NCBI GenBank assembly: GCA_017451735.1
Contig: JAFTNU010000036.1
Coordinates: 9,456 to 73,455 of the forward strand
Direction: 5' to 3'
Source: Clostridia bacterium
Lineage (GTDB): Bacteria; Bacillota; Clostridia; Oscillospirales; CAG-272
DNA length: 64,000 nt
Of this stretch, positions 3,235 to 50,659 are shown piece by piece. Under the pieces are notes generated by a model. It made no database searches and was not told where the DNA came from. It saw only the letters and a program-made list of their open reading frames with translations. The translations under genes and the position numbers were made by a program. Positions within the stretch are counted from its first letter, which is position 1, and every line of letters starts with the position of its first letter.

Positions 3235-3296
3235 GTAGGAGATTTTAATATGCGTATATACTCATAATATGGTTGAGCGTTTCTACCAACCGCCGT

Positions 3297-4825: not shown

Positions 4826-4864
4826 CCGCTTTGTCATTAAAAAAATAATGGCAAAGCGGTTTTT
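4826..4864 (+). terminator. rho-independent terminator
   Basis: CCGCTTTGTCATTA / TAATGGCAAAGCGG stem (1 mismatch), A-rich loop, then TTTTT. Confidence 0.8.
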
Positions 4865-7422: not shown

Positions 7423-7479
7423 CGTATAGTACCTGATATGATATTAAAAATCATCTTTTGCACGCTTCCGTTTTTCGAA

Positions 7480-7520
7480 AGTTCATTTGCGTGAACTATT
7501 ATAGTTCATTTGCGTGAACT
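7480..7520. promoter_or_regulatory. two tandem copies of an 18-bp palindromic operator (AGTTCA-N6-TGAACT)
   Basis: AGTTCATTTGCGTGAACT occurs at 7480-7497 and again at 7503-7520 (23-bp register). It sits 60-100 nt upstream of the DUF5131-MarR-DUF5131 operon start (7422). Confidence 0.65.
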
Positions 7521-7618
7521 TGTCAATATGATCTCCAAAAATTCTTGCCGCCGTTTTTTCTTGATTGCAGCGCAGGAATACGGCATTTGCCAACCGATTA
7601 ACTTTCGAATCGGCCGCC

Positions 7619-7647
7619 TTGACAGAACACGCTTTTGCGGCTATAAT
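7619..7647 (+). promoter_or_regulatory. sigma-A type promoter for the EamA transporter gene
   Basis: TTGACA (7619-7624), 17 nt, TATAAT (7642-7647). Confidence 0.7.
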
Positions 7648-7705
7648 ATAAAAATCACCGATCCGAGTAAGGTGATTTCAGAGAAACGGAAGGGGCGAAG
7701 ATGTT

Positions 7706-8617
7706 ATGAAGAAATCGGTGAAAACCGGCATTTTTTTGGCCGTTTTGGCGGCGGCACTTTATGCCGTCAATTCCCCCTTTTCCAAGCTTTTGCTAAGCTA
7801 TATGCCACCCACGCTGATGGCGGGTTTTCTGTATCTCGGCGCGGGACTCGGCATGGGGGTGATCGCATTGATACGAAAATGCCGCGCTAAAACGGCGGGC
7901 GAGGCAAAATTGACCCGTGCCGAGCTCCCCTTCACTCTTGCCATGATCCTGCTGGACATTGCCGCCCCCATCTGCCTTCTGCTTGGCTTGCGGGCCACCA
8001 CGGCGGCCAATGCTTCACTGCTCAACAACTTTGAGATCGTGGCCACGGCCATCATCGCACTGATGGCATTCAAGGAGCGGATCAGCCCACGGCTCTGGGG
8101 CGGGATCCTGTGCGTGACTCTATCCTGTGCTCTGCTCTCCTTTGAGAATATCGCAAGCCTGCAATTTTCGGCGGGCTCCCTGTTTATCCTGCTTGCTTGC
8201 ATCTGCTGGGGATTTGAAAACAACTGTACCCGAAAAATATCCTCCAAGGATCCGTTGGAGATCGTATTGCTCAAGGGGATCTTTTCGGGAGAGGGATCGG
8301 TGGTGATCGGCTTGTGCATCGGTGAGAAAATTACTGTAACGTGGTGCGTTTTTGCGGTACTTGGGGTGGGTTTTGTGGCCTACGGGCTCAGTATTTTTTT
8401 CTATGTTTACGCGCAACGGCTCCTGGGCGCGGCACGGACCAGTGCCTATTACGCCGTGGCCCCCTTTATCGGAACATTGCTCTCTCTTCTGATCTTCCGC
8501 GAGCTGCCTCCCTACACCTATTTCATTGCTTTGGTGGTGATGATCGCAGGCGCATGGCTTTGCTCGGGAGACAAGCCTCTGTTTCAAAAAAATTCCAAAA
8601 AGGATTGTGAAAAATAA
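7706..8617 (+). CDS. DMT superfamily (EamA-like) transporter
   Basis: 303 aa, about 10 hydrophobic segments in two EamA-like halves. Confidence 0.8.
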   Translation: MKKSVKTGIFLAVLAAALYAVNSPFSKLLLSYMPPTLMAGFLYLGAGLGMGVIALIRKCRAKTAGEAKLTRAELPFTLAMILLDIAAPICLLLGLRATTAANASLLNNFEIVATAIIALMAFKERISPRLWGGILCVTLSCALLSFENIASLQFSAGSLFILLACICWGFENNCTRKISSKDPLEIVLLKGIFSGEGSVVIGLCIGEKITVTWCVFAVLGVGFVAYGLSIFFYVYAQRLLGAARTSAYYAVAPFIGTLLSLLIFRELPPYTYFIALVVMIAGAWLCSGDKPLFQKNSKKDCEK

Positions 8618-32801: not shown

Positions 32802-34129
32802 AGGCGCACCTCTCTGCCCTTATCCGCCAGCATATACAGGGCGGCAACCAGACGGGCGCGCAGCTCGGCGGGGGCGATGATGTCGTCGACCTCACCCGTG
32901 GCGGCGGCTCTTTCGGGCGTTGCCACAGTCTCACGCCATTCCTTCTCCAGGGACTCACGGGAGGTCTCGGGCGTAATGCGGTCATTCCAAAGGAATGCCA
33001 CGCCCGATCTTGCGGTCAGTGCGGCGATCTCGGCGCCCGGCAAGGAAAGAACCAGGTCTGCACCCAAGGCGCGACAGGAGCCGAAAATGAATCCCGCGCC
33101 CACGGCATCACCGACAATTGCGGTAACGCGGGGCGTTGTTGCGCTTGCCTGTACCTTAGCCAGGGCGGCCAGCTCGGCGGCCAGTTCCCCCTCCTCGGCG
33201 GCATTGGCCGCAAGGCCCGTGCAGTTCACAAGAGTGACGACCGGCAGGCCGAAGGCATCGGCCGTGGTCAGCATACGGCGCATTTTTTTGACAGCGCTCA
33301 GGTCCAGGGCACCGTCCATGGCCAGGGCCAGAGCCGAAACGCCGCCGAAAGCGGCAAGACCTGCGGTGACGGCAGACCCATAGCCGCCAAGCACCTCATA
33401 AAAGCTGCCTGCATCGGCCGTGACGTCAAGCGCCTCCTTGGCGGTGGAACGGTCGCCCAGGGGCACGGCACGGTTGGGATCATCGGCGGTGCTCAGTGCG
33501 GGAATGCCGTGCGCGGCATGGTCGGGCAGATAGGAAAGGAGCTTTTGAACAGCGGCGATCGCCTCCCCCTCTCCATCTGCAAGCACGGCCGCGTTGCCAT
33601 GCTCAAAGGCATATGCGGCGGTGCCGACCTCCTCACCCACCTGTGTGGGAGAGGACACATACAAGTGCCCGCTGCCCTTTACGGCAACGGTAAAATCAAA
33701 GAGAGCCGCAACCGATGCCATGGTGCCGGCGCAGGTGCCGCTGATCACGGCGATCTGAGGGATTTGGCCCGAGGCCGCCGCCACGGTACGCAGCAGCGTT
33801 CCGTAGCCTGCCAAAGCGGCCGCACCGTCAAAGACGACGGCACCGGCACAATCGAAAAATCCCACAATGGGCGCCCCTACCGCCATGGCCTTTTGGTAGG
33901 TGCGAACGATCTTATCGGCATGGCGCCCGTCCAGGGCGCCCTTCATCAGGGAGCTATCCTGAGAGAAGGCAAAGACCAGGCGACCCGCCATGGAGCCGTA
34001 GCCGCAGATCACGCCCTCGGCCTGATCCTCGGTACCCGGGCGACAGATATACGCCCCAAGCTCCACAAAGGTACCGGCATCGAAAAAGGACTGCAAACGC
34101 CCGATGCCGACTGTGTTTTTTTCTTTCAT
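32798..34129 (-). CDS. acyl-CoA carboxyltransferase (12S / methylmalonyl-CoA decarboxylase alpha type, short 443-aa form)
   Basis: Two carboxyltransferase half-domains (GALDGRHADKIVR..APIVGFFDCAG; KMRRMLTTADAFGLPVVTLVNCTG). Confidence 0.8.
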   Translation of the reverse strand: MKEKNTVGIGRLQSFFDAGTFVELGAYICRPGTEDQAEGVICGYGSMAGRLVFAFSQDSSLMKGALDGRHADKIVRTYQKAMAVGAPIVGFFDCAGAVVFDGAAALAGYGTLLRTVAAASGQIPQIAVISGTCAGTMASVAALFDFTVAVKGSGHLYVSSPTQVGEEVGTAAYAFEHGNAAVLADGEGEAIAAVQKLLSYLPDHAAHGIPALSTADDPNRAVPLGDRSTAKEALDVTADAGSFYEVLGGYGSAVTAGLAAFGGVSALALAMDGALDLSAVKKMRRMLTTADAFGLPVVTLVNCTGLAANAAEEGELAAELAALAKVQASATTPRVTAIVGDAVGAGFIFGSCRALGADLVLSLPGAEIAALTARSGVAFLWNDRITPETSRESLEKEWRETVATPERAAATGEVDDIIAPAELRARLVAALYMLADKGREVRL

Positions 34130-34328
34130 AAAGTCCTCCGTGTACGCTTTTCGAGGGTGGTTGCTTTATTGTATATATAAAACAAACCTTCTCCCCCAAT
34201 TTACCATAATTTTACCACAAAACGCACGAACGGTGGGGTCTTTTTCAAAAAACAGTTGTTAACATTTTGTAAACGGCTGAGTTTTTTTCCCCTTTGAGAA
34301 AAAAATTACAAAAATTTGCAAAAAGGGG

Positions 34329-34357
34329 TTGCATTTCTGTTTTTATTGTGTTATAAT
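34329..34357 (+). promoter_or_regulatory. sigma-A type promoter with extended -10, for tRNA-Val
   Basis: TTGCAT (34329-34334), 17 nt, TGtTATAAT (34349-34357). Confidence 0.75.
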
Positions 34358-34383
34358 AGTGTTCGTTGCGAAACAACGCACAT

Positions 34384-34460
34384 GGGGGCATAGCTCAGCT
34401 GGTTAGAGCGCATGCTTGACATGCATGAGGTCATTGGTTCGATCCCAACTGTCCCCACCA
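34384..34460 (+). tRNA. tRNA-Val (anticodon GAC), CCA encoded
   Basis: Cloverleaf read by hand: acceptor GGGGGCA/TGTCCCC, D-arm AGCTCAGCTGGTTAGAGC, anticodon stem CATGC/GCATG with loop TTGACAT, T-arm GGTTCGATCC, and 3' ACCA. Confidence 0.9.
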
Positions 34461-34461
34461 A

Positions 34462-34505
34462 CAAAAAGAGAACTTTTGTTTACCAAAAGTTCTCTTTTTG
34501 TTTAT
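34462..34505 (+). terminator. rho-independent terminator after tRNA-Val
   Basis: 17-bp stem CAAAAAGAGAACTTTTG / CAAAAGTTCTCTTTTTG, loop TTTAC, T-rich tail. Confidence 0.85.
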
Positions 34506-34685
34506 CCAAGCCGCAGGCTTGGCATATCATCCGCCGCAAGGCGGTATATCATCAGCCCTTCGGGCTGTATCTCATCACGCCCCGGCGTGTATTTTTCTGC
34601 GGCTTGATGAGATACAACACTTCGTGTTGATGATATCCAGCTCCAAGGGAGCTGATGATATACAAGGCTTCGCCTTGATTTATTT
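34496..34685 (+). repeat. hairpin-comb element, copy 1 (190 nt, full length)
   Basis: Seven GC-rich hairpins are separated by AT-rich ATATCATC-type spacers, three direct and three inverted. See findings. Confidence 0.85.
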
Positions 34686-34760
34686 ACAAAAACTCTAAAA
34701 GAAGTGATATTGTGGAACCATTGATGCACCTGTTTGGCTGTATTCTAAACCGGTTTGATT

Positions 34761-34903
34761 TTTTGTTTATCCAAGCCGCGGGCTTGGCATATCATCCGCC
34801 GCAAGGCGGTATATCATCAGCCCTTCGGGCTGTATCTCATCACGCGTCGGCGTGTATTTTTTCTGCGGCTTGATGATATACAAGGCTTCGCCTTGATTTA
34901 TTT
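34761..34903 (+). repeat. hairpin-comb element, copy 2 (143 nt, copy 1 minus 48 nt)
   Basis: Aligns to copy 1 with 3 substitutions, 1 T-run length change and one 48-nt deletion bounded by a TGATGA direct repeat. Confidence 0.85.
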
Positions 34904-34942
34904 GCTAAAGTATGATATGATACTCTCAAAGGGAGTGATAGT

Positions 34943-35290
34943 ATGGCTAAAAACTATTTATTGGTCTATTCGGAGCAGCTTGCAACCGATATGGAATTGC
35001 TTTGTCAAAATATAAAAGCTCCTTCCAATACTCTTTTTCAAATCCGTAAAAGCTCAAGCAGTGTTTATGCAAACATTCGTGAAGCCAATTATGGACAAAG
35101 CAAAGCGGATATGCTTTCGAAATTTGAGATTGCCCTTAAAGAATGCACTGAAACAGAAGGTTGGTTGCAGTTGTTGTACAATGCAAACGGCGTAGACGAG
35201 AACATTTACAAAAATCATAGAAATCTTTGCGGGCGCATCAGACGAATGCTGATTGCAAGCTGTACAACGCTAAAGAAGAACACAAAATGA
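34943..35290 (+). CDS. four-helix-bundle protein (23S rRNA intervening-sequence protein / Avd family)
   Basis: QIRKSSSSVYANIREANYGQSKADMLSKFEIALKECTETEGWLQLL fits the family pattern Q..RS..SI.ANI.EG....S..DF...L.IA..E..ET..WL. SD AAGGGAG is present. The gene is markedly AT-rich relative to its neighbours. Confidence 0.75.
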   Translation: MAKNYLLVYSEQLATDMELLCQNIKAPSNTLFQIRKSSSSVYANIREANYGQSKADMLSKFEIALKECTETEGWLQLLYNANGVDENIYKNHRNLCGRIRRMLIASCTTLKKNTK

Positions 35291-35368
35291 ATATAAAATC
35301 TATTCTCCCGTACAATACAGATAAATTTGCAGAACAGTTGAAAAAATTTCTTTGAAGATGAAATTTGA

Positions 35369-35397
35369 TTGACAAAATTTGTTATTTATCATATAAT
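35369..35397 (+). promoter_or_regulatory. sigma-A type promoter for ksgA
   Basis: TTGACA (35369-35374), 17 nt, TATAAT (35392-35397). Confidence 0.75.
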
Positions 35398-35427
35398 GAA
35401 TCCATGACACATGAACGTGAGGTAAGC

Positions 35428-36288
35428 ATGAATCTTTGCGACGTAAGAACCGTAAAAAATATCATGGAGGCCTTCGGGCTCCGTTTTCGCAAGGAGTTCG
35501 GGCAGAATTTTCTGACCAATCCCATGGTTGTGAGCGACATTGCCGACTCCTGCACCGACAGCGCCGAGGACAGCATTTTGGAGATCGGCCCCGGCATCGG
35601 CACGCTGACCCGTGAGCTCTGCGCCCGCTACAAAAGCGTATTGGCACTGGAGATCGACCGCGGGCTGATCCCTGCCCTTTCCTACACCCTGGACGAGTTC
35701 AAAAACGTGAACGTGATCAACGAGGATGTAATGAAGGCTGACCTGGCCGCGCTTCTTTCCCCTTATTTTGAGGCGGGCGGCGTATCGGTCTGCGCCAATC
35801 TCCCCTATTATATCACAACCCCCATTCTGATGAAGCTGTTGGAAAGCGGCCTTCCCTTTCGCTATATCACCATTATGATCCAATCGGAGGTAGCCGACAG
35901 GCTGACGGCAAAGGCGGGCAGCGGAGCCTACGGAGCCATTACCGCCATGCTGAACTACTACGGCACGGCAGAGCGGTTATTTACCGTTTCGGCAGGCAAC
36001 TTTCTGCCGCCCCCCTCGGTCAATTCGGCAGTGGTACGCATCAGGCTCCATGAGCAAAAGCCCTATGTGCCAAAGGACGAGGAGATCTTCCGCCGCACGG
36101 TAAAGGCCGCCTTTGAGCAACGGCGCAAGACATTGCCCAACGCGCTGTCGGCAGGATTTCCCACCTTGAGCAAGGAGCAATGCATTGCGGCTGTCACGGC
36201 GGCAGGCCATCGCCCCGACATCCGCGGCGAGCGGTTGGACGTCAGCGAATTCGTGGCGCTCTCCGACCTGATCGCACAGATGCTATAA
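35428..36288 (+). CDS. rsmA: 16S rRNA (adenine1518-N6/adenine1519-N6)-dimethyltransferase
   Basis: FGQNFL, ILEIGPGIGTLT and NLPYYITTPI motifs. I placed the start at ATG 35428, downstream of the promoter. Confidence 0.9.
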   Translation: MNLCDVRTVKNIMEAFGLRFRKEFGQNFLTNPMVVSDIADSCTDSAEDSILEIGPGIGTLTRELCARYKSVLALEIDRGLIPALSYTLDEFKNVNVINEDVMKADLAALLSPYFEAGGVSVCANLPYYITTPILMKLLESGLPFRYITIMIQSEVADRLTAKAGSGAYGAITAMLNYYGTAERLFTVSAGNFLPPPSVNSAVVRIRLHEQKPYVPKDEEIFRRTVKAAFEQRRKTLPNALSAGFPTLSKEQCIAAVTAAGHRPDIRGERLDVSEFVALSDLIAQML

Positions 36289-42581: not shown

Positions 42582-43844
42582 TTATTTGGTACGTAACACT
42601 TCCGCCGCGGCGGAGAGAACACCGATGCGGCCGCTCTCAAAGGTCAGGCCGCCCTGGAAAAAGGCGGTGTAGGGGGGGCGCAGAGGGCCGTCTGCCGACA
42701 GCTCGATGGAGGCGCCCTGCACGAAGGTGCCTGCCGCCATGATGACCTGATCCCGATAGCCCGGCATTGCCCAGGGCTCGGGGGTGACATAGGCATCCAC
42801 GGGAGAGCCCGCCTGAATGCCCCGGCAGAAGGCGCACAATCCCTCGGCAGACCCCGTGATGACCGTCTGGATGATATCCGAGCGCCGCTCACCGGGAGCG
42901 GGCTCTACGGCATAGCCCAATTTTTTGAATACGTATGCGGCGAAATGCGCCGTTTTGAGCGCTTCAGCCACCGTGTGCGGCGCATAAAAGATGCCGCGGA
43001 ACATATGCTTGTTCTGCCCCAGGGTCGCCCCCACCTCAAGCCCGATGCCGGGACAGGTGAGACGGTAGGAGCAAAGCTCTACGGCGCGGGCGGTGCCTGC
43101 CAGATAGCCGCCGGTTTCTGCCATGCCGCCGCCGGGATTTTTGATCAGCGAGCCGATAGCAAGATCGGCGCCCACGGCGGGGGGCTCGCGGGTCTCGGTA
43201 AACTCACCGTAGCAGTTATCCACCACCACGAAGACCTCGGGACGGATGGATTTGACGAAGCGGACCGCCTCGCCGATCTCGTCCACGGTCAAGGTCTTGC
43301 GGTTGAGGTAGCCCTTGGAGCGCTGGAGGAAGCAGACCTTGACCCGCGCGCCCGCCTCGGAGCGCAGGAATGCACCGATGGCATCAAAATCAAGGCGCTT
43401 GCCCTCGATCATCTCGATGCCGTGATAGTCCACGCCGTAGTCGGCAAGCGACCCGTTACCGGGAGTTCCCGCAATGCCGATGACCTCCTCTAAGGTGTCG
43501 TAGGGCTTGCCCGTCAGGGACAGCAGGATATCACCCGGACGCAACAAACCGAACAGGCCGATGGTCAGGGCGTGGGTGCCGTTGACGATGCTGTGGCGGA
43601 CGAACGCCGCCTCGGCGCCCATTACGTCGGCAAAAATTTTATCCAGTACCTCCCTGCCCCGATCGTCGTAGCCATAGCCCGTGGTGGGGGCAAAGCAGGC
43701 GGCATCCACGCGATGCTCGGCAAACGCCGCCATCACGCGGGCGGTGTTCTCGTGCGAGACCTTGGCAATGTGTGAAAACTCTTGGGCCAGTGCCGCCTCG
43801 GCCCGGTCGGCAAGAGTCAATAATTCCTTGGAAAATTCGATCAT
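42582..43844 (-). CDS. methionine gamma-lyase family protein (YnbB / 'aluminium resistance' family)
   Basis: 420 aa, PLP-fold pattern (GYGYDDRGRE, SLIKNPGGG). Confidence 0.75.
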   Translation of the reverse strand: MIEFSKELLTLADRAEAALAQEFSHIAKVSHENTARVMAAFAEHRVDAACFAPTTGYGYDDRGREVLDKIFADVMGAEAAFVRHSIVNGTHALTIGLFGLLRPGDILLSLTGKPYDTLEEVIGIAGTPGNGSLADYGVDYHGIEMIEGKRLDFDAIGAFLRSEAGARVKVCFLQRSKGYLNRKTLTVDEIGEAVRFVKSIRPEVFVVVDNCYGEFTETREPPAVGADLAIGSLIKNPGGGMAETGGYLAGTARAVELCSYRLTCPGIGLEVGATLGQNKHMFRGIFYAPHTVAEALKTAHFAAYVFKKLGYAVEPAPGERRSDIIQTVITGSAEGLCAFCRGIQAGSPVDAYVTPEPWAMPGYRDQVIMAAGTFVQGASIELSADGPLRPPYTAFFQGGLTFESGRIGVLSAAAEVLRTK

Positions 43845-44842
43845 TTCGCACCTCCCAGATACGCAAGGGTCAGATCAACGGCGGCCTTGGCGTCACGCAG
43901 GTCGATCATCTCCACCCCGGAGTGAATATAGCGGGAGGGGATGGAAAGCGCCCCCGCGCGACAGCCGAGCCCCGTCATCTGCACCGAGGAGGTGTCGGTA
44001 CCGCCGTAGGTGAGGATCTCGCACTGGGCGGGGATCCTTTTCTCCTTGGCAGCATCCAGCAGCTCGTCCACCAGCGTACGGTCGCAGATCACCGAGCTAT
44101 CCTTGATCTTAACGGCAACACCCTCGCCCAGCTTGACCGCCATGGGCTTGCTTCCCTGCTCGTCACCCGTGCCTGTCACGTCATAAATGAGGGCGAGATC
44201 GGGGGCGATGGCAAAGGCGGCTGGCTTGGCACCGCGACAGCCCACCTCCTCCTGCACGGAGAATACATAATAGATATCATCGGCGGGAGCGGTCAGCCTT
44301 TGAGCGATCTCAAGCATCACGGCACAGCCGATACGGTCGTCAAAAGGCCGACCCGTGATGCGATTTGCCGTCAATTTGGTCAGATGCGGCACAAGCGCAC
44401 AGCAGTCGCCGATCCTCACGCGGCGCTCTGCCTCCTTGCGGGAGGCGGCACCGATATCGATATAGCATTTCTCAGCCTTGGGGGTCTCCTTGGCGGGCAC
44501 GTCGGCCTCGGGCACAAGCACGCCCCGCGCGCCGTTTTCGAACACCACCTCGGAAAAGGCGGCGGCCGCATAGTGAATACCGCCGATGGGGGCCACCCGC
44601 AGATAGCCGTTCTCTTCAATAAAGTTCACGATAAAGCCGATCTCGTCCATATGGGCGCAGAGCATCACCTTACGGGGGGCAGCGGCACTGCCCTTTTTCA
44701 AGCAGATCAGATTGCCCATGGCATCCACGGAAACATCGTCAACCAAGGGACGCATCAGCGCGGTGATGATCTCCCGAATGCCACCCTCACGCCCCGATAC
44801 CGAGGGGACAAGGGGCAATAATTTTTTTAACGTATTGATCAT
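43841..44842 (-). CDS. M42 family metallopeptidase (paralogue 3 of 3)
   Basis: MLCAHMDEIGF, FSVQEEVGCRGA and IHSG motifs. The ATG at 44842 overlaps the upstream stop (ATGA). Confidence 0.85.
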   Translation of the reverse strand: MINTLKKLLPLVPSVSGREGGIREIITALMRPLVDDVSVDAMGNLICLKKGSAAAPRKVMLCAHMDEIGFIVNFIEENGYLRVAPIGGIHYAAAAFSEVVFENGARGVLVPEADVPAKETPKAEKCYIDIGAASRKEAERRVRIGDCCALVPHLTKLTANRITGRPFDDRIGCAVMLEIAQRLTAPADDIYYVFSVQEEVGCRGAKPAAFAIAPDLALIYDVTGTGDEQGSKPMAVKLGEGVAVKIKDSSVICDRTLVDELLDAAKEKRIPAQCEILTYGGTDTSSVQMTGLGCRAGALSIPSRYIHSGVEMIDLRDAKAAVDLTLAYLGGAK

Positions 44843-45897
44843 TTGATTCCTTCCTTCCAATCGCTCAGCATCCGAATCAGCAGAGCGATCATGCTTTCAA
44901 AATCCTTGACCGACGCCACCGAAACGGGGGCATGGAGATAGCGGGTGGCGGCAGAGAGCGCCAGGCATCTGACACCGATGCCGCTCCGCTGGATATGCGC
45001 CGCGTCATTGCCCCCCGATACGTAGCGCTTCACCTGCACGGGAATGGCGTTTTTCGCACCCGTGTTAAGGGCAAAATCGATCAGGGCACGGTCATAGATG
45101 GTGGAGCGGTCCAAGAGGGACAGCACCCCGCCCTCTCCCACGGTGGCCACACGACGGGAGGGATCCACATCCGCCACGTCGGCAATCGCAGTGGTCTCTA
45201 AAATGATACCGTAATCGGGGGCGATGCGATTGGCGGTGACGCCTGCACCCGATTTGCCGATTTCCTCACGCACCGTGAAGCAAAACCACAGGTCAAGAGG
45301 GAGCTTTTTTCCGTCAAGAGCGCGCAGGACCTCGATCAGCACGGCACAGCCCAAGCGGTCGTCCAGTGCCTTGCACTTGATGAACGCCCCATCCTTGCCA
45401 AAGCGGCAGAAGGGGGTATCAAAGGTGCCAAAGTCACCCCGTTCCAGGACCTTTTCCGTCTCCTCACGGCTATTGGTACCGATGTCGATATACAGATCCT
45501 CGGTTTTCGGCAGCTCCTTGCGCTCCTTGGCGCTTTGCTGATGGATGCCCTTTGCGGCGATGACGCCCGGGATGCGCTTTGTCTCGTCACCCAGCGTGAC
45601 CGCTCTGCCCGAGAGCACGGCGGGGTCGATGCCGCCCAAAGGTTCGAAGCGCAGATAGCCCTTTTCCTCGATATGGGTGATCATAAAGCCCACCTCGTCC
45701 ATATGGGCCGAGAGCATGATGCGGGGGGCACCCTCGGGGCCTGCCAGATGCGCGGTCAGGTTGCCCATGCGGTCGGTTTCCAATATGGCGCCCGTGCCTG
45801 CCAGCTCCTCACGAATGGCCTGCTCGACCTCGCCCTCGCAGGAGGTGGGTCCGAAGCAAAGTGCCAGCCTTTCAATCAATTCCACGCCGTATTTCAT
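44839..45897 (-). CDS. M42 family metallopeptidase (paralogue 2 of 3)
   Basis: MLSAHMDEVGF, ALDDRLGCA and FTVREEIG motifs. ATGA overlap with the upstream gene. Confidence 0.85.
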   Translation of the reverse strand: MKYGVELIERLALCFGPTSCEGEVEQAIREELAGTGAILETDRMGNLTAHLAGPEGAPRIMLSAHMDEVGFMITHIEEKGYLRFEPLGGIDPAVLSGRAVTLGDETKRIPGVIAAKGIHQQSAKERKELPKTEDLYIDIGTNSREETEKVLERGDFGTFDTPFCRFGKDGAFIKCKALDDRLGCAVLIEVLRALDGKKLPLDLWFCFTVREEIGKSGAGVTANRIAPDYGIILETTAIADVADVDPSRRVATVGEGGVLSLLDRSTIYDRALIDFALNTGAKNAIPVQVKRYVSGGNDAAHIQRSGIGVRCLALSAATRYLHAPVSVASVKDFESMIALLIRMLSDWKEGIK

Positions 45898-46934
45898 GCG
45901 AACACCTCCCCGATCTCTTTATCGGTGACAAAGGCACGCACCAGTGCCGCCAGATACTCGGCGTCAGTCATATCCAGCATCTCCACGTAGGTGTGCATGG
46001 CGCGCAGGGGCAATCCCACATCCACCACGGGGATCCCCTTCCCCACCAGATGAAGGGACACAGTATCGGTGCCCGTGGAGACGGCGTCCACGCACCGCTG
46101 CCACGGAATGCCACCGCGCTCGCAGAGCGCCTCGGTCATTTTGGTCAGACGGCGGTCGGTGATGGCACTGCGGCAGATCGAGGGACCCTTGCCCATTTCC
46201 ACCGTGCCGATCTCCTTACTGCCGGGAGCATGTCCGATGTTCACATCGATCACCATAGCGTAGTCGGGCTCCACCGAGAAGCCGCCCACGGCGGTACCGC
46301 CCACACGGTCGGTCTCCTCATGCACCGCGAATACCAAATAGACATCCCCTGCCAGCTCGGCGGCGGGAATATCCCGCAGGGCGTGGGCGGCAATGGCACA
46401 GCACGCCTTGTTGTCCATGCCCTTGCCCACCAGGCGGTCATTCTGCAGCCATGTGTAGCGGGGGGTAAAGCCCACGGGGGTACCGATACGCACAAGCTCG
46501 CGGAGCTCCTCCGTGGGGTAGCCCGTATCGATCAGCAGCTCACTCACCGGCTTGACCTTCTCCTCGTCATCCTTGTTCTTGAGGTGGGGGGGTGTGGAGG
46601 CGATAACGCCTTCCAGCACCTGCTTGCCGTAGATTCTGACATCTGCCGAGGGGAGGGTGCGTCCGTCCAGACCGCCCACGCCCTCGACCTTGAGAAAGCC
46701 CCCGTCGCGGATATCCGAGACATGGAGCCCGATCTCGTCAAAATGAGTGTCGATGAGGATCTTGGGGGCGTTCTCCCGTCCGCATCGCCGCACAAGGATA
46801 CGATTGCCCACCGGATCGGTGATATCCTCGTCAAAGCCCTGCAGCAGGGCAGTCAGGCGCTCGGCATCGTAGGTCTCATAGCCCGTAATGCTCATCAGCC
46901 CCGCCATGGCGGGGATCAGCTCACGAAGTTCCAA
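45894..46934 (-). CDS. M42 family metallopeptidase (paralogue 1 of 3)
   Basis: LIDTHFDEIGL, GMDNKACC and FAVHEETD motifs. Confidence 0.85.
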   Translation of the reverse strand: MELRELIPAMAGLMSITGYETYDAERLTALLQGFDEDITDPVGNRILVRRCGRENAPKILIDTHFDEIGLHVSDIRDGGFLKVEGVGGLDGRTLPSADVRIYGKQVLEGVIASTPPHLKNKDDEEKVKPVSELLIDTGYPTEELRELVRIGTPVGFTPRYTWLQNDRLVGKGMDNKACCAIAAHALRDIPAAELAGDVYLVFAVHEETDRVGGTAVGGFSVEPDYAMVIDVNIGHAPGSKEIGTVEMGKGPSICRSAITDRRLTKMTEALCERGGIPWQRCVDAVSTGTDTVSLHLVGKGIPVVDVGLPLRAMHTYVEMLDMTDAEYLAALVRAFVTDKEIGEVFA

Positions 46935-46937
46935 TTT

Positions 46938-47399
46938 TCAGTTCCTTTCTTTTATGACCACAAGCTCCTCTGTTTCGGCGTTATAGCCGATCAGGACGGT
47001 GGCATTGCTGTAATCGTTGAATTGCGGGGTCATCAGCCCCTCCGCGTTAAAAACCGCACGGGTCTCAAGGGTCCTTTCCTCTACCTCCACAATGAAATAG
47101 AGCCGTCTCCCCCAGGTGGTCTGCGGGTGGGTCAGCGTGACCTCGTGAAAGCGATAGCCGTCGGTATTCTTAAAAATGCTGAACAGATTAAAGCCGTACC
47201 AAGCCATAGCGGGCACGCCGACCAAGGCCGAGGCGGCGGGCACCAGCTAGAAGGAGGGAGAGTCCGTTGCAATGACGCACACCGCGCCAAGAAGGGTGAA
47301 GAAGGCGACCATCACACTCATGACAAGCATATGACTCTTATAAAACTTCACATCGGCGGAACGCCGAAGCAAGGCTTTTGTATTTGCGGTCTCCTGCAT
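46938..47399 (-). pseudogene. small two-TM membrane protein, reading frame interrupted by one in-frame TAG (47249-47247)
   Basis: ATG 47399 has SD GGGGAGGGGG and its own -10. The frame reads MQETANTKALLRRSADVKFYKSHMLVMSVMVAFFTLLGAVCVIATDSPSF*LVPAASALVGVPAMAWYGFNLFSIF... and continues in the same frame to TGA 46938. Confidence 0.6.
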
Positions 47400-47504: not shown

Positions 47505-47534
47505 CACAGCCGTCCGCGCAAACGGACGGCTGTG
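47505..47534 (-). terminator. rho-independent terminator after the TIR-LRR gene
   Basis: 12-bp stem CACAGCCGTCCG / CGGACGGCTGTG. It is followed on the minus strand by CTTTT. Confidence 0.75.
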
Positions 47535-47542: not shown

Positions 47543-50500
47543 TTACGAGTAGAAGATCTCATAATCTCCGGTATTGCGATCCCAATCGGCGCCAAAGGAT
47601 ATCTGCCCCCATTGAGATTGACTGCCGCCGTAACGGATAACGGTCAGATCGCTACAGTCTGCAAAGGCCGATGCGCCGATCTGCCCCACGCTCACGGCTA
47701 TGTCCACTTCGGCAAGGCTCGGGCAATTGCCAAAGGCGCCCTCCCCCACCATCCGCACTGTTGCGGGAACATTGACATACTGCAACCGGTCACAGCCGTA
47801 AAATGCGTCATTTCCCACCGATGTAAAGCCATACGGAATATCCGCAGAGGTCAGGCTGTCGCAGTCGGCGAAGGCATAGCTGCCCATCAGCGCACCGTCT
47901 GTGATCGAGAAGGAGCCCGACTCCAAGGCCTTACAATTCTGGAAGGCGCAATCGTTGATGGCGGAAATTGCTTTATCAAAGGAGATCTCACGGATCAGGT
48001 CGCAATTGCGGAAGGCGTAGGCAGGAACGGCGGTCTGGCGTGTCACCTTTACCCGACGGAGGCTTGCGGGGACAGCATAGCCATAGTAAAAATTTCCGTC
48101 GGCATCGTCAGGTGACTGTGCCGTCAGCCCCACGGAGCCGCTTGTGGCAGATTCGCCGGAGATCAGCTGCTGACCGTCCCCGAAAATGTATCCCAGGGTG
48201 GTGTCCTTTTGCTCTGTCACCGTCAGGCCCGCGCCCACAAAGGGCAACGTGATCTCGGCAAGAGAGGTGCATCCGCTAAAGGCGCCGTAGCCCATGGAGG
48301 TCACGCTCTCGGGCACGGTAACAACGGTCAATCCGGAGCAATTTGCAAACGCCCCCGCCTCCACGGTCTTTACACTGTCGGCAATCTCCAAATCGGTCAG
48401 ACCCGTACAACCAAGGAAAGCGTCTCCGCCAATGGTTTCCACACCGTAAGGAACGGAAAAGGAGACAAACGCAGTGCAATTTGCAAACGCACTGCCTCGG
48501 ATGACGGCAAAGTCGGCAGCTTCAAAATAGCAGCCGGACAGATTACTGCACCCGGAAAAGGCATGCATGCCCACCGAGGAGACCTTTTGTGCCACGCCGA
48601 TCTCACGGATCATATCGCAGTTGTGGAAGGCATAGTCGGGCAGGACGGTCTGTCGGGTAATGCCTACGCGTCGAAGGCTCCGGGGGATCGCATAGCAATA
48701 ATAGCTGAGCAGGCTCCCCTCTCCGAATGCCGGGGCCTGCGTGGTATAGCCCTTGTCGCCGCTTGTCGCAGCCTCACCCACTGCCGTTGTGTGCGTACCG
48801 TCCGTGCCGAAAATATAGCCGAGGGTGGTCGTATTCAGCTCGGTCGCGGTCATGCTTCTGCCCACAAAGGGCAGGATCAACTCGGTCAGTGAAGTGCACC
48901 CACCAAAGGCCCCCTCTCCGATCTCGGTCACCGAATCGGGAACCTCCACCGTGGTCAGCGCTTTTTGATCCCGAAATGCCCCCGCCGCAATGGCCACCAC
49001 GGCCTTATCGTCAATATTGTCGGGCAGGGTCAGGGTGGTTTCACTGCCCCGATAATCGGTGATCATCACGCCGCCGTCGACAGTCTTATATCCGATGTTC
49101 TCATAGTAAAGCACCTCTCCGTCGGCCGAAATGCTCGGCTCGTCGACACCCTTATCGATGGATTGTATCACACCGATGATCACGCCGACCGTCACAACGA
49201 TTGCCACCAGGGCAAGGATACCCACGCCGATCAGCTTGTTGGAAAAGGCGGATTTCTGCAGTGCCCGCTCGGGAGCGGGCGCGGAACGGTAGCGATCCCC
49301 GACGGGCGCTTGCCGAACAGAAGGCACGCGGCCGGCCGTGACCCGGAAGAAGGTCCGGAACCGCTCCGAATCCTCGACCCAGAATTCCACCCGGTAACGG
49401 CCTGCGGGGATCACGGTACCGTCCCCGCCCCTCAGGATCCATCCCCGCGAAATACGGCTATAATCAGGAGCCCAGTCAAACTGCGATTCATCCTCGAAAA
49501 TTTTTACATTGCGCTCGTCATAAATGGCAAAGCCGCATGTGATCCGATTCTTGTTGACGGTCCCCTTCAGATCGGCATGAAAATACACCACGCTGAACCG
49601 ATCGCGATCGATGTCGGTGGAATACTCCCCCTTGGGCCAGCAATGATTGGCATCGTTGGAGCCGATGGTCCGCACGCTCCCGATGGTGACCGATCGCCCA
49701 CGGATTTGCTCCCGATTTTCGTTTTTTCCCTGAACGGGTGGCTTTTTTTCTGTCCTTGGGGGCTTATCATCCTGCATGATCTTGTCGATACCGCGCAACA
49801 GATCCTGCATGGCACCGACCTTACCCATATCCTGATACTGCAATGCCCTGAATTCGTCGGGCCAGTCCCGCAGGCTCATATCCTTAAAGCAAGGAACGAT
49901 CGTCTTTTTCTCGCCCCGTTCGATCATTTCAAGGAAACGGCTCCATTCATTCCGCACCCACACCGCATTGATATACTCAGTCCTGGTGCCCACCACCAGC
50001 ATCAGCCTTGCGCTGTTGAGCGCCGAAAAAATGTAGGGCTCGTAGGCGGAGCCGATCTTATCCTCCAGCGTGATGCGAGAGAAAAACACCTTGTATCCCC
50101 GTGCCATCAGCTCATGATAGATCTGTTCGGCGATCACGCTGTCCACCGTGCGCTCGTCGTTCTCATCGCTATCCTTATAGGAGATGAAGATGTCGAAGCG
50201 GCTCTCCTTGGCCGAAATGGCCAATATGTTTTTCTGGATCGCATCGATACGCTCCGCCTCGGTGCGGTACAGCTCCCTTGCCCCACCCTCGGCATGCTCG
50301 AGGGCGCAGAGGTAATCACGATCCTGCAGGATCGATTTGAAATGCGTCCTGTGACAGGTGGGGATCCGCAGGCCGCTTTTGGGGTCCTCCACGTACTCGA
50401 TGCCATATCGACAAAGGCAGAGGCTCCAATAGGCCTCGGCATCGGTGGTGTCCTCGGCCAGAATACCCTCATACAGCGCCATTGCCTTGTCAAACTCATT

Positions 50501-50659
50501 GTTACGGCGGTACTCGTTGGCACGCTTGTAAAGCCCGGCACGCCGCTCGTCGGGCAATTTGGGCAAGGTCTGTTGCATGCGGCAGTATTTGCACGTAGCT
50601 ACACTGCTTTTTTCTGCGATGATCAGATCACCGCCGCACATCTTACAGTTGAAAATCAC
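47543..50659 (-). CDS. zinc-ribbon / TIR-domain / single-TM / BspA-type leucine-rich-repeat protein
   Basis: CxxC..CxxC (C5, C8, C23, C26). TIR-like FDIFISYKDSD...GYKVFF...AVWVRNEWSRF. TM LIGVGILALVAIVVTVGVIIGVI (aa ~475-498). About 500 aa of AF..C..L..V.IP.SV..IG..AF repeats. GTG start. Confidence 0.8.
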   Translation of the reverse strand: MIFNCKMCGGDLIIAEKSSVATCKYCRMQQTLPKLPDERRAGLYKRANEYRRNNEFDKAMALYEGILAEDTTDAEAYWSLCLCRYGIEYVEDPKSGLRIPTCHRTHFKSILQDRDYLCALEHAEGGARELYRTEAERIDAIQKNILAISAKESRFDIFISYKDSDENDERTVDSVIAEQIYHELMARGYKVFFSRITLEDKIGSAYEPYIFSALNSARLMLVVGTRTEYINAVWVRNEWSRFLEMIERGEKKTIVPCFKDMSLRDWPDEFRALQYQDMGKVGAMQDLLRGIDKIMQDDKPPRTEKKPPVQGKNENREQIRGRSVTIGSVRTIGSNDANHCWPKGEYSTDIDRDRFSVVYFHADLKGTVNKNRITCGFAIYDERNVKIFEDESQFDWAPDYSRISRGWILRGGDGTVIPAGRYRVEFWVEDSERFRTFFRVTAGRVPSVRQAPVGDRYRSAPAPERALQKSAFSNKLIGVGILALVAIVVTVGVIIGVIQSIDKGVDEPSISADGEVLYYENIGYKTVDGGVMITDYRGSETTLTLPDNIDDKAVVAIAAGAFRDQKALTTVEVPDSVTEIGEGAFGGCTSLTELILPFVGRSMTATELNTTTLGYIFGTDGTHTTAVGEAATSGDKGYTTQAPAFGEGSLLSYYCYAIPRSLRRVGITRQTVLPDYAFHNCDMIREIGVAQKVSSVGMHAFSGCSNLSGCYFEAADFAVIRGSAFANCTAFVSFSVPYGVETIGGDAFLGCTGLTDLEIADSVKTVEAGAFANCSGLTVVTVPESVTSMGYGAFSGCTSLAEITLPFVGAGLTVTEQKDTTLGYIFGDGQQLISGESATSGSVGLTAQSPDDADGNFYYGYAVPASLRRVKVTRQTAVPAYAFRNCDLIREISFDKAISAINDCAFQNCKALESGSFSITDGALMGSYAFADCDSLTSADIPYGFTSVGNDAFYGCDRLQYVNVPATVRMVGEGAFGNCPSLAEVDIAVSVGQIGASAFADCSDLTVIRYGGSQSQWGQISFGADWDRNTGDYEIFYS

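What the first reader, a model, noticed from the sequence alone, without database searches (positions are those of the whole stretch)
47543..50659. Toll-like-receptor parts list in one bacterial protein: cytoplasmic zinc-ribbon + TIR, single TM, extracellular BspA-type LRR
Domain order read from the 1038-aa translation:
- aa 1-30: CxxC..CxxC zinc ribbon.
- aa ~40-150: helical, TPR-like region.
- aa ~153-295: TIR-like domain (FDIFISYKDSD.., GYKVFF, LMLVVG), nt ~49775-50203. The segment NAVWVRNEW aligns with the (S/A)xWxxxE motif, whose Glu (here E238) is the catalytic residue of NAD+-cleaving TIR domains.
- aa ~325-445: beta-rich domain of unknown family.
- aa ~475-498: one hydrophobic helix preceded by basic residues, nt ~49166-49237.
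- aa ~520-1038: about 500 aa of BspA-type leucine-rich repeats containing two internal duplications of about 190 aa (..LPFVG..TTLGYIFG..YAIPRSLRRV.ITRQT..).

There is no signal peptide. The predicted topology is therefore TIR inside and LRR outside. That is the same logic as animal TLRs, with the order reversed from N to C. Known bacterial TIR defence systems (Thoeris and fusions of TIR with SAVED, STING or NLR-like modules) are cytoplasmic and usually have a partner effector. No ThsA, SIR2, SLOG or other effector gene is adjacent here; the neighbours are murD upstream and a small membrane protein downstream. A surface-sensing TIR protein that is potentially NADase-competent would be a different kind of system.
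Basis: partly seen in the sequence, partly recalled or inferred. Interest (0 to 1): 0.75.

Follow-up and report, generated by a model that had tools for sequence, protein, structure and literature searches.

The report
Membrane-spanning bacterial TIR receptor with LRR ectodomain
This gut Clostridia gene encodes a single-pass membrane protein with a catalytically intact TIR "immune" domain inside the cell and a leucine-rich-repeat binding domain outside; it belongs to a huge family I found no description of, whose outer domains are swapped between relatives and in some relatives deliberately hypermutated, which suggests a bacterial counterpart of Toll-like receptors.

Summary
ORF 47543-50659 (-) encodes 1038 aa in this order: CxxC..CxxC zinc ribbon, short TPR-like helical module, TIR domain, Wzt_C-like beta-sandwich, one TM helix, and about 520 aa of BspA-type LRR with one internal tandem duplication.
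- **TIR:** Pfam TIR_2 E=6e-13; the AlphaFold model matches the AbTir TIR at TM 0.74; E238 sits in a conserved AxWxxxEW motif.
- **Topology:** N-in/C-out, supported by the positive-inside rule in 200 of 201 single-TM relatives.
- **Family:** 3,877 50%-identity clusters match at E<=1e-30, in gut and rumen Clostridia.
- **Conservation:** the cytoplasmic module is about 60% identical across relatives; the C-termini are interchangeable (DUF6273, LRR_5, RCC1, Flg_new, RHS, TM2, none).
- **Paralogues:** they occur in tandem arrays with different ectodomains.
- **Hypermutation:** in five related loci a diversity-generating retroelement hypermutates the ectodomain.
- **Partner genes:** about half of family genes follow an SPFH protein and a multi-pass (apparently four-TM) membrane protein.
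- **Invertible promoter:** some of these operons sit behind one.
- **This window's copy:** an orphan next to murD, with no partner genes.

Best reading: a transmembrane receptor whose ligand-bound ectodomain activates a cytoplasmic TIR NADase. Function is inferred, not shown. I found no description of the family in the searchable literature.

The parts
47543..50659 (-). Complete ORF, 1038 aa plus stop codon (47543-47545); GTG start
   Evidence: 100% identical to P0121
50668..50673 (-). Ribosome-binding site AAAGGA, 8 nt upstream of the GTG start
   Evidence: sequence read
50567..50659 (-). aa 1-31: zinc ribbon, CKMC..CKYC (C5, C8, C23, C26)
   Evidence: invariant cysteines; present in 374 of 381 relatives; three short beta-strands in the model
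50207..50548 (-). aa 38-151: helical, TPR-like module with a beta-hairpin and a long C-terminal helix; family-defining, with no close solved relative
   Evidence: weak Pfam TPR hits; model pLDDT 92.6; only weak TPR matches by Foldseek, E>=0.09
49772..50203 (-). aa 153-296: TIR domain
   Evidence: Pfam TIR_2 E=6.2e-13; Foldseek AbTir TIR 7uxu_A TM 0.74, plus Roq1 and L7 TIRs
49946..49948 (-). Codon of E238, the putative catalytic Glu in the motif A232-x-W234-x-x-x-E238-W239
   Evidence: aligns with the Glu of L6/L7 WCLMEL; invariant in A1; motif in 378 of 381 relatives
49337..49687 (-). aa 325-441: cytoplasmic beta-sandwich, Wzt_C-like (also resembles PDE6delta/RhoGDI lipid-binding sandwiches)
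   Evidence: model pLDDT >90; Foldseek 6o14/8dky/5hno, E 1e-5 to 1e-4, target TM up to 0.61; homologue P0009 carries Pfam Wzt_C
49163..49231 (-). aa 477-499: single TM helix IGVGILALVAIVVTVGVIIGVIQ (signal-anchor, N-in/C-out)
   Evidence: positive-inside rule across the family
47546..49102 (-). aa 520-1038: predicted extracellular BspA-type leucine-rich repeat (LRR_5) domain
   Evidence: Pfam LRR_5 E=1.3e-73, 4 stretches; weak NCBIfam match to the HupY/LrrG adhesin
48350..48976 (-). Internal repeat copy 1 (aa 562-770)
   Evidence: local alignment with copy 2: 100 of 209 identical, score 479 against 38+-6 for shuffles
47735..48349 (-). Internal repeat copy 2 (aa 771-975)
47510..47525 (-). Terminator-like hairpin followed by a T-run, just after the stop codon; none lies between murD and this gene
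   Evidence: consensus scan only

Best explanation
**What it is**
- The gene encodes a type-II (N-in/C-out) single-pass membrane protein.
- Inside the cell: a zinc ribbon, a short TPR-like module, a TIR domain with an intact NADase-type active-site motif, and a Wzt_C-like beta-sandwich next to the membrane.
- Outside the cell: a BspA-type LRR solenoid.
- It belongs to a very large family in gut and rumen Clostridia for which I found no description. In this family a strongly conserved cytoplasmic ZnR-TPR-TIR 'constant' module is joined through one TM helix to interchangeable, fast-evolving extracellular binding domains.

**Most likely mechanism (inferred)**
1. The ectodomain binds an external ligand, such as a phage particle, a foreign cell-surface component or a host component.
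2. Binding clusters the receptors in the membrane.
3. Clustering brings the TIR domains together to form active NAD+-cleaving sites, as in other TIR enzymes.
4. NAD+ depletion, or a cADPR-type signal, changes cell fate (growth arrest or defence).

In many relatives an SPFH scaffold protein and a multi-pass (apparently four-TM) membrane protein encoded just upstream probably take part.

**Shown:** domain order, TIR fold, conserved Glu motif, topology statistics, family size, ectodomain variability, DGR targeting, gene linkage.
**Inferred:** enzymatic activity, outside-to-inside signal direction, the ligand, a defence role.
For: **Architecture and fold**
- Domain order, TIR fold and TM helix.

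**Active site**
- E238 aligns with the catalytic Glu position of the plant L6/L7 TIRs.
- W234, N237, E238 and W239 are invariant. The motif is present in 378 of 381 relatives, which argues against a decayed TIR remnant.
- The BB-loop/alphaB region (L198, G203, Y206-I210) is also invariant.

**Topology**
- K+R in the TM flanks averages 6.7 on the N-side and 1.5-1.9 on the C-side. N>C in 64 of 64 and 136 of 137 single-TM relatives.

**Constant module, variable ectodomain**
- Median identity is 60% for aa 1-300, 33% for the beta-sandwich and 29% for the LRR.
- Ectodomain classes among 64 single-TM members: DUF6273 40, LRR_5 9, RCC1-like 9, Flg_new 4, RHS 2.
- Well over 100 clusters combine TIR_2 with LRR_5.
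- Tandem paralogues share 58-93% identity in the N-terminal module but often have unrelated C-termini.

**Targeted hypermutation of ectodomains in relatives**
- bAvd, a template repeat and a reverse transcriptase lie downstream of the gene.
- VR/TR mismatches fall on TR adenines: 16/17, 24/26, 21/21, 18/21, 17/20 and 17/18.

**Linked genes**
- The SPFH + membrane protein pair lies upstream on the same strand for 43 of 93 family genes, with 10 more partial.
- The reverse test held in 4 of 4 look-ups centred on protein A.
- The slot between them holds candidate defence genes, including a stand-alone TIR matching PADLOC PDC-S66 at 1e-40.
- Some operons sit behind an invertible-promoter-like element beside a tyrosine recombinase.

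**Family size and location**
- 3,877 cluster representatives match at E<=1e-30.
- The family is chromosomal: no hits in reference phages or plasmids, and 2 hits in 2.9 million viral contigs.
Against: - There is no biochemical or genetic evidence for NADase activity, ligand binding or defence.
- The window's own copy has no SPFH/A pair, no DGR and no defence neighbours. It sits between murD and peptidase genes, and may be co-transcribed with murD.
- Its best PADLOC hit is weak (PDC-S66, E=4e-6), so it does not belong to any catalogued defence system.
- DGR targeting was seen only for DUF6273-type ectodomains, not for LRR_5.
- LRR_5, Flg_new and RHS domains are also typical of adhesins, so the ectodomain could serve adhesion rather than sensing.
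- Many family members lack a TM helix or a large ectodomain (21 of 98). The TIR module can therefore work without surface sensing.
- Residue-level superposition of E238 on a solved active site was not possible. Only sequence-profile alignments with weak E-values (0.025-0.2) were available.
Confidence: 0.55

Rival explanations
1. Surface adhesin with a cytoplasmic anchor. The LRR (or other) ectodomain mediates adhesion to host mucus, other cells or particles. The conserved ZnR-TPR-TIR module only anchors, clusters or regulates display of the adhesin from inside the cell, without sensing from outside to inside.
For: - LRR_5, Flg_new, RHS and FNIP domains are common in Firmicute surface adhesins.
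- NCBIfam gives a weak match to the HupY/LrrG adhesin.
- DGR targets and phase-variable promoters are also typical of adhesins and surface antigens.
- The gene context here is housekeeping.
Against: - A passive anchor would not need an invariant catalytic-Glu motif in 378 of 381 relatives, nor 60% identity across bacterial families.
- Firmicute adhesins are normally anchored by sortase/LPXTG motifs or lipid anchors, not by a 470-aa cytoplasmic enzyme module (general knowledge).
- 21 of 98 family members have no TM helix or ectodomain, yet keep the same module.
- Stand-alone TIR and other defence-candidate genes are inserted in the same operon.
Confidence: 0.2
2. Cytoplasmic sensing with a membrane-tethered effector. 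The ZnR-TPR module, or the Wzt_C-like beta-sandwich, senses an intracellular cue such as a phage protein or a lipid-linked cell-wall or glycan intermediate at the inner membrane face. The TIR then depletes NAD+. The C-terminal part mainly localises the protein or has a separate role.
For: - TPR and zinc-ribbon modules serve as sensors in other TIR systems (PMC11350192; bioRxiv 10.1101/2023.05.26.542521).
- The beta-sandwich resembles cytoplasmic Wzt glycan-binding and PDE6delta lipid-binding domains.
- Soluble and TM2-domain family members exist.
- The gene is adjacent to murD in this window.
Against: - The ZnR-TPR module is the most conserved part. That is the opposite of what an arms-race sensor would show, whereas the ectodomain is variable and is the part a DGR diversifies.
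- murD adjacency is not seen in other loci.
- The beta-sandwich is absent from most LRR-type relatives.
Confidence: 0.17
3. Host-directed TIR virulence or immunomodulatory factor of the Tcp type (like TcpC, BtpA or TirS), which interferes with host TLR signalling.
For: - The bacterium lives in a gut-associated habitat.
- Pfam's TIR_2 family includes such proteins.
Against: - The TIR is predicted to be cytoplasmic, with no signal peptide or secretion signal, behind a signal-anchor helix.
- The family is large, multi-paralogous and present in rumen and gut commensals of many hosts.
- The linkage to DGRs, an SPFH protein and defence-candidate genes does not fit a secreted effector.
Confidence: 0.03

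Closest known systems
Bacterial NAD+-cleaving TIR proteins (AbTir, Thoeris ThsB, PADLOC PDC-S66 and similar)
   Same: TIR fold (Foldseek AbTir 7uxu_A TM 0.74); conserved WxxxE catalytic motif; weak profile matches to PDC-S66 and to the Thoeris type III ThcB4 TIR.
   Different: Those proteins are soluble and cytoplasmic, and usually pair with a dedicated effector (ThsA and others). This one is membrane-anchored with about 520 aa outside the cell. It carries a family-specific N-terminal ZnR-TPR module and has no adjacent effector. No known system profile scores above weak levels.
Animal Toll-like receptors
   Same: The same parts and logic: an LRR solenoid outside, a single TM helix, a TIR inside; multiple paralogues with different ectodomains.
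   Different: The order is reversed (type II rather than type I) and there is no signal peptide. The LRR is of the BspA/LRR_5 class, not the TLR 'typical' class. The TIR keeps the enzyme-type Glu motif and has extra ZnR-TPR and beta-sandwich domains. The resemblance comes from convergent domain shuffling, not shared descent of the architecture.
DGR-diversified conflict-system sensors (Kaur et al. 2020, PMC7159879; Dore et al. 2024, PMC10907252)
   Same: A C-terminal lectin-like variable domain is hypermutated by a DGR and coupled to effector domains that can include TIR. In the relatives seen here, the DUF6273 ectodomains are DGR targets.
   Different: Those systems are built around STAND or vWA-MoxR NTPases, are mostly cytoplasmic, and occur in multicellular bacteria. 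Here there is no NTPase; the variable domain is extracellular behind a TM helix; and the hosts are unicellular gut Clostridia. The window's own LRR copy shows no DGR.
Firmicute N-in/C-out transmembrane sensors such as the PASTA kinase PrkC/PknB and RsgI anti-sigma factors (from general knowledge, not tested here)
   Same: The same topology and logic: a cytoplasmic N-terminal output domain, one TM helix, and extracellular C-terminal repeat domains that bind ligands.
   Different: The output domain is a TIR, not a kinase or an anti-sigma domain. There is no sequence relationship.
BspA-type LRR surface proteins and HupY/LrrG adhesins
   Same: LRR_5 repeats (E=1.3e-73) and a weak NCBIfam match to HupY/LrrG.
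   Different: The HupY/LrrG score is far below the family cutoff (54 bits against 1250). Those proteins are secreted or wall-anchored adhesins without a cytoplasmic enzymatic module.

Membership tests
TIR domain superfamily (Pfam TIR_2, PF13676) | Profile match above the curated cutoff | tested here: met
   49.7 bits against a cutoff of 28, E=6.2e-13, aa 157-279
TIR domain superfamily (Pfam TIR_2, PF13676) | Flavodoxin-like TIR fold | tested here: met
   AF2 model pLDDT 88; Foldseek AbTir TIR TM 0.74, rmsd 3.5, plus Roq1 and L7 TIRs
NAD+-cleaving (enzymatic) TIRs | Catalytic Glu in the alphaC WxxxE motif | tested here: met
   E238 aligns with the Glu of L6/L7 WCLMEL (weak E-values); invariant in 58 sequences; motif in 378 of 381 relatives
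NAD+-cleaving (enzymatic) TIRs | Measured NADase or cyclase activity | not testable with these tools
   Needs biochemistry
Thoeris and other catalogued TIR defence systems | An adjacent cognate effector (ThsA: SIR2/SLOG/Macro/TM and similar) and a match to the system's profiles | tested here: not met
   The neighbours are murD, a 101-aa ORF and M42 peptidases. PADLOC gives only PDC-S66 at E=4e-6; NCBIfam ThcB4 gives 20 bits against a cutoff of 220.
Toll-like receptors | Type I topology: signal peptide, N-terminal LRR ectodomain, TM helix, C-terminal TIR | tested here: not met
   The order is reversed and there is no signal peptide. The same three parts are present, with a predicted LRR-out/TIR-in topology.
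Toll-like receptors | TLR-type ('typical') LRRs with LRRNT/LRRCT caps | tested here: not met
   The dominant match is LRR_5 (BspA type). LRR_8 is marginal at 29.7 bits with no significant stretch.
BspA-type LRR proteins (Pfam LRR_5) | LRR_5 repeats above the cutoff | tested here: met
   245 bits against a cutoff of 27.7, 4 stretches
DGR target (variable) proteins | A VR/TR pair with adenine-specific mismatches, plus an RT and bAvd nearby | tested here: not met
   For the window gene, no bAvd homologue was found anywhere in the window; RT and TR/VR repeats were not searched for in the window. The feature is met for DUF6273-type relatives in L009, L018, L029, L058 and L071.
ZnR-TPR-TIR membrane-receptor family of Clostridia (defined here) | N-terminal CKMCGG..C(E/K)YC zinc ribbon, helical module, and a TIR with AVWV(K/R)NEW, about 60% identical over aa 1-300 | tested here: met
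ZnR-TPR-TIR membrane-receptor family of Clostridia (defined here) | Upstream SPFH (Band_7_1) and multi-pass (apparently four-TM) membrane protein pair | tested here: not met
   Absent from the whole 64-kb window. Present for 43 of 93 family genes elsewhere.

The most novel reading that the evidence does not exclude
Gut Clostridia carry a repertoire of true transmembrane TIR immune receptors. Germline paralogue arrays and DGR-driven hypermutation diversify the extracellular binding domains (LRR, lectin-like DUF6273, RCC1 and others). These detect extracellular threats, such as phage particles or competitor surfaces, before anything enters the cell. They trigger a cytoplasmic TIR NADase response, possibly through the linked SPFH scaffold and the multi-pass membrane protein, and the system can be switched on and off by an invertible promoter. 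This would be a prokaryotic, functionally TLR-like surface surveillance system with antibody-like diversification.
Probability: 0.3. Interest if true: 0.92.

Novelty: new variant of a known kind. Interest (0 to 1): 0.78.

Why it matters
Bacterial TIR systems described so far sense infection from inside the cell, and a recent survey noted that the TM and LRR features of TLRs seem to be missing in bacteria (PMC11350192). This gene shows that the full TLR parts list does exist in bacteria, as one variant of a family with thousands of members in gut and rumen Clostridia.

Several features together are the signature of an immune-receptor-like repertoire:
- a conserved enzymatic TIR core;
- swappable and DGR-hypermutated ectodomains;
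- tandem paralogue arrays;
- linkage to an SPFH protein and a membrane protein;
- phase-variable promoters in some loci.

If the ectodomain controls the TIR, this would be the first case of extracellular sensing coupled to TIR and NAD+ signalling in prokaryotes. It would make two questions directly testable: how receptor-type TIR signalling can arise, and what gut bacteria monitor on their surface. The family is also missing from current defence-system catalogues, so it is a blind spot in microbiome annotation; this protein is labelled only 'leucine-rich repeat protein'.

Tried and rejected
- **Single-sequence search of the TIR region against PDB sequences** found nothing relevant. I replaced it with a family profile and a fold search.
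- **Exact-sequence contig look-ups** for the window protein and for P0121 found nothing on record. Neighbourhoods therefore came from relatives.
- **blastp self-comparison** did not report the internal repeat. A local alignment of the two halves, with a shuffle control, did.
- **Fold search of the N-terminal ZnR-TPR module alone** gave no significant hit (best E 0.09, designed TPRs). Its fold is only 'TPR-like'.
- **SLATT lead for protein A:** NCBIfam SLATT_1 gave E=0.008 and DUF4231 matched 3 of 42 homologues. A PDB profile search gave only chance-level hits. The lead is inconclusive and is not claimed.
- **Phage or plasmid origin:** no matches in reference phages or plasmids, and 2 in IMG/VR. 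Rejected.
- **Literature searches** used combinations of TIR with zinc ribbon, TPR, TM, BspA, LRR_5, DGR, SPFH and DUF6273, and I read five papers. No description of this family turned up. The library lacks most subscription journals, so prior description cannot be excluded.
- **Recent horizontal acquisition of the window gene:** GC content is 57-58%, like its flanks, so there is no support.
- **murD as a functional partner:** rejected as a family feature, because other loci have unrelated neighbours.


Full report
**1.

The ORF at 47543..50659 on the minus strand is real: 1038 aa with a GTG start. An AAAGGA ribosome-binding site lies 8 nt upstream, and the GTG start is needed to include the first CxxC. 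The protein is 100% identical to an NCBI MAG protein annotated only as 'leucine-rich repeat protein [Clostridia bacterium]' (P0121).

Family scans and models give this picture:
- **Pfam:** TIR_2 at aa 157-279 (E=6.2e-13, 49.7 bits against a cutoff of 28), LRR_5 (E=1.3e-73), and only sub-threshold TPR hits at aa 42-80.
- **Defence libraries:** PADLOC gives one weak hit (PDC-S66, E=4e-6). NCBIfam gives weak hits to the Thoeris type III ThcB4 TIR and to the HupY/LrrG LRR adhesin, both far below cutoff.
- **Membrane helix:** the only hydrophobic segment is aa 477-499 (Kyte-Doolittle 3.0). It has basic residues before it and acidic residues after it.
- **Internal repeat:** there is one tandem duplication, aa 562-770 against aa 771-975, with 48% identity and a score of 479 against 38+-6 for shuffles.

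**2. Structure**

An AlphaFold2 model of aa 1-470, built on 58 homologues, has mean pLDDT 88. The only disordered stretches are the linkers at aa 302-320 and 445-464.

- **TIR part:** Foldseek matches it to AbTir TIR bound to 3AD (7uxu_A, TM 0.74, rmsd 3.5) and to plant Roq1 and L7 TIRs.
- **Beta-rich domain (aa 325-441):** it matches Wzt carbohydrate-binding domains (6o14, 8dky, 5hno) and PDE6delta/RhoGDI-type sandwiches. One homologue carries Pfam Wzt_C (P0009).
- **N-terminal module (aa 1-155):** modelled alone it reaches pLDDT 92.6. It gives only weak matches to TPR proteins (E>=0.09), so it is TPR-like and has no solved close relative.
- **Catalytic residue:** a family profile of the TIR region aligns AVWV(K/R)NEW with 'KWCLMEL' of flax L6/L7, so that E238 falls on their Glu (weak E-values, but consistent with the fold match). 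From my own knowledge, that Glu is E135, the catalytic residue.
- **Conservation:** C5, C8, C23, C26, W234, N237, E238 and W239, and much of the BB-loop/alphaB region, are invariant. The motif (A/S)xWxxxEW occurs in 378 of 381 retrieved relatives, and the zinc ribbon in 374.

**3. The family**

All 120 listed hits start with the same 'CKMCGG..CEYCG' zinc ribbon, but their C-termini differ: none, TM2 domain, DUF6273, Wzt_C or multi-TM. The full-length query showed that TIR_2 combined with LRR_5 recurs in well over 100 clusters, often with Flg_new, FNIP or LRR_4 as well.

- **Size:** an exhaustive phmmer search of aa 1-300 against 1.84 billion cluster representatives found 6,943 proteins at E<=1e-3 and 3,877 at E<=1e-30. 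Their lengths range from 421 to 3,073 aa.
- **Taxonomy:** a scan of species-representative genomes found at least 583 relatives. These lie in Oscillospiraceae, Acutalibacteraceae, Lachnospiraceae, Christensenellaceae, Anaerovoracaceae and others from human, ruminant, rabbit, horse and chicken guts. They include the isolates Anaerotignum sp. MSJ-24 and Ruminococcaceae bacterium YRB3002.
- **Not mobile:** the family is absent from reference phages and plasmids. It has 2 hits in 2.9 million viral contigs.

**4. Topology and modularity**

Of 98 family genes in 80 genome loci, 67 have exactly one TM helix followed by a C-terminal region of up to about 1,570 aa; 64 of these have more than 120 aa after the helix and were used in the topology and ectodomain analyses. 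21 have no TM helix, and 15 loci carry 2-3 tandem paralogues.

- **Positive-inside rule:** it is obeyed almost without exception. Mean K+R is 6.7 on the N-side against 1.5-1.9 on the C-side. N>C in 64 of 64 and 136 of 137 proteins. This supports TIR inside and C-terminal domain outside.
- **Ectodomain classes:** among 64 single-TM members there are 40 DUF6273, 9 LRR_5, 9 RCC1-like propellers, 4 Flg_new and 2 RHS, plus others.
- **Conservation gradient:** relative to the window protein, median identity is 60% for aa 1-300, 33% for the beta-sandwich and 29% for the LRR. None of the 380 retrieved relatives clearly combines the beta-sandwich with an LRR ectodomain. Tandem paralogues share 58-93% identity in the N-terminal module and often have unrelated C-termini (also L001, where DUF6273- and LRR_5-type paralogues lie 4 kb apart).

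**5. Targeted hypermutation of the ectodomain in relatives**

A gene cluster immediately downstream of some family genes is bAvd-like. It is followed by a 127-nt repeat of the gene's 3' end and a reverse transcriptase (RVT_1, E about 5e-22).

Mismatches between the two repeat copies fall almost only on adenines of the downstream copy:
- L009: 16 of 17
- L018: 24 of 26
- L029: 21 of 21
- L058: 18 of 21
- L071: 17 of 20 and 17 of 18, where one template serves two tandem paralogues

This is the defining signature of a diversity-generating retroelement. The variable region lies at the C-terminus of DUF6273, a domain already known as a DGR-variable domain in phage receptor-binding proteins (PMC11792537 and PMC10743442). 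So in this family the outer domain is a specificity-determining binder under diversifying pressure. No bAvd homologue was found in the window, and DGR targeting was not seen for the LRR_5 class; RT and TR/VR repeats were not searched for in the window itself.

**6. Linked genes in relatives**

- **The pair:** two genes recur just upstream on the same strand. B is an SPFH/Band_7_1 protein with C-terminal double zinc ribbons or a SHOCT domain (E about 1e-35 to 1e-38). A is a ~233-aa multi-pass (apparently four-TM) membrane protein with a helical tail and no family assignment.
- **Frequency:** B+A precede 43 of 93 family genes. Another 10 have one of the two, and 17 lack upstream sequence. The A-to-TIR gap is under 150 nt in 22 cases.
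- **All ectodomain classes:** the pair accompanies every class, including LRR_5 in 4 of 5 informative cases.
- **Reverse test:** starting from A homologues (about 1,200 of them), 4 of 4 look-ups gave the order B-A-(variable gene)-TIR-TM-DUF6273.
- **Variable slot:** it holds a stand-alone TIR (PADLOC PDC-S66, E=1e-40), a DUF2971 protein (weak PDC-S31), a GDPD protein and unknowns. One database protein fuses A to a TIR (P0384).
- **Protein A:** its weak SLATT/DUF4231 similarity is inconclusive.
- **Invertible-promoter-like element:** in 3 of the 4 A-centred loci, and in 5 of the 46 B genes with at least 700 nt of upstream sequence, a tyrosine recombinase lies just upstream. Perfect or near-perfect (95-100% complementary) 18-31-nt inverted repeats (core ACATAAT..ATTATGT) flank roughly 130-250 bp between it and B. 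This looks like an invertible promoter, but inversion itself has not been shown.

**7. The window's own context**

The window gene is an 'orphan' copy.
- murD ends 41 nt upstream, with no terminator between the two genes. A terminator-like hairpin follows the stop codon.
- Downstream lie a 101-aa ORF with no family match and three M42 peptidase paralogues.
- No B, A or bAvd homologue exists anywhere in the 64 kb, and there is no second family copy.
- GC content matches the flanks.
- Other orphan LRR-type copies also sit in unrelated housekeeping contexts (L001; L085). murD adjacency is therefore probably incidental.

**8. Interpretation**

*Shown:* the architecture, the TIR fold, the conserved active-site motif, the N-in/C-out statistics, the constant-module/variable-ectodomain organisation, DGR targeting in relatives, and the operon linkage.

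*Inferred:* NADase activity, activation by ectodomain-driven clustering, the ligand, and a conflict or defence role.

I put 0.55 on the transmembrane receptor with TIR output. The rivals:
- **Adhesin with a cytoplasmic anchor (0.2).** This fits the adhesin-like ectodomain types. It does not explain the invariant catalytic motif, or the soluble family members.
- **Cytoplasmic sensing with a tethered effector (0.17).** This fits the soluble and TM2 variants and the Wzt_C-like sandwich. It does not explain why the ectodomain is the diversified part.
- **Secreted host-directed Tcp-type factor (0.03).** This is contradicted by the topology.

**9. Comparison with what is known**

The protein is a member of the TIR superfamily, with enzyme-type motifs, and of the LRR_5 repeat class. 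It is not a member of Thoeris or any catalogued TIR system: it has no adjacent effector and only weak profile hits. It is not a TLR either: the order is reversed, there is no signal peptide and the LRR class differs. It works like a TLR only by analogy.

The nearest conceptual relatives are:
- the DGR-diversified conflict sensors with TIR effectors of multicellular bacteria (PMC7159879, PMC10907252), which are NTPase-centred and mostly cytoplasmic;
- N-in/C-out Firmicute sensors such as PrkC or RsgI (from my own knowledge).

A 2024 survey states that the TM and LRR features of TLRs seem absent from bacterial TIR systems (PMC11350192). I found no paper describing this family, but the searchable library is incomplete.

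**10. Verdict**

This is a real feature that had been annotated only generically. I rate it a new variant of a known kind (bacterial TIR conflict and signalling proteins), with a plausible but unproven reading as a new class of surface-sensing TIR receptor. Interest: 0.78.

Noticed in passing
L088 4540-4561 / 4797-4818; L089 the same coordinates; L091 4524-4554 / 4805-4835; also L009, L012, L035, L046 and L077 upstream of the SPFH gene: Perfect or near-perfect (95-100% complementary) 18-31-nt inverted repeats (core ACATAAT....ATTATGT) flank roughly 130-250 bp between a tyrosine recombinase gene and the SPFH-A-(X)-TIR operon. This looks like an invertible promoter giving phase-variable expression of the operon.
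   Followed up: partly
L009 10418-10544 (VR) / 11111-11237 (TR); L018 6520-6646 / 7213-7339; L029, L058; L071 (TR 10848-10994, with two VRs): Diversity-generating retroelements (bAvd, TR, RT) target the DUF6273 ectodomain of TIR-family genes. In L071 one template serves two tandem paralogues.
   Followed up: yes
for example L059 5647-6819 (B), 6835-7533 (A), 7546-7971 (stand-alone TIR): A conserved upstream pair: an SPFH/Band_7_1 protein with zinc ribbons or SHOCT, and an uncharacterised ~233-aa multi-pass (apparently four-TM) protein with about 1,200 homologues. A variable slot between the pair and the family gene carries candidate defence genes (a PDC-S66-type TIR, DUF2971). One database protein (P0384) fuses A to a TIR. 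A's weak SLATT/DUF4231 similarity is unresolved.
   Followed up: partly
L088 and L089, 728-3410: Schlafen/AlbA_2-HATPase and HEPN-ApeA genes lie just upstream of the recombinase-SPFH-A-TIR module, and TnpV lies downstream. The context looks like a defence island.
   Followed up: no
window 49337-49687 (-): The cytoplasmic, membrane-proximal beta-sandwich resembles Wzt glycan-binding domains and PDE6delta/RhoGDI prenyl-binding domains. It could bind a lipid-linked glycan or cell-wall intermediate at the inner membrane face. The adjacent murD gene makes this tempting, but murD adjacency is not conserved.
   Followed up: partly
window 43841-46934 (-): Three tandem paralogous M42 glutamyl-aminopeptidase genes lie directly downstream of the 101-aa ORF.
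   Followed up: no
window 34001-36288: A low-GC stretch (45.5% against about 57%) contains a tRNA (34384-34457, +) and an rRNA adenine dimethylase (RrnaAD) ORF (35365-36288, +). This is either KsgA or an acquired Erm-like methyltransferase.
   Followed up: no
window 3232-3330 (+): A purine riboswitch (Rfam RF00167, 56 bits) lies upstream of the ORF at 3350-4717.
   Followed up: no
window 46938-47243 (-): The 101-aa ORF downstream of the TIR gene has no Pfam match and is not among the recurrent neighbours of family genes. It has its own promoter-like site (47468-47440).
   Followed up: partly
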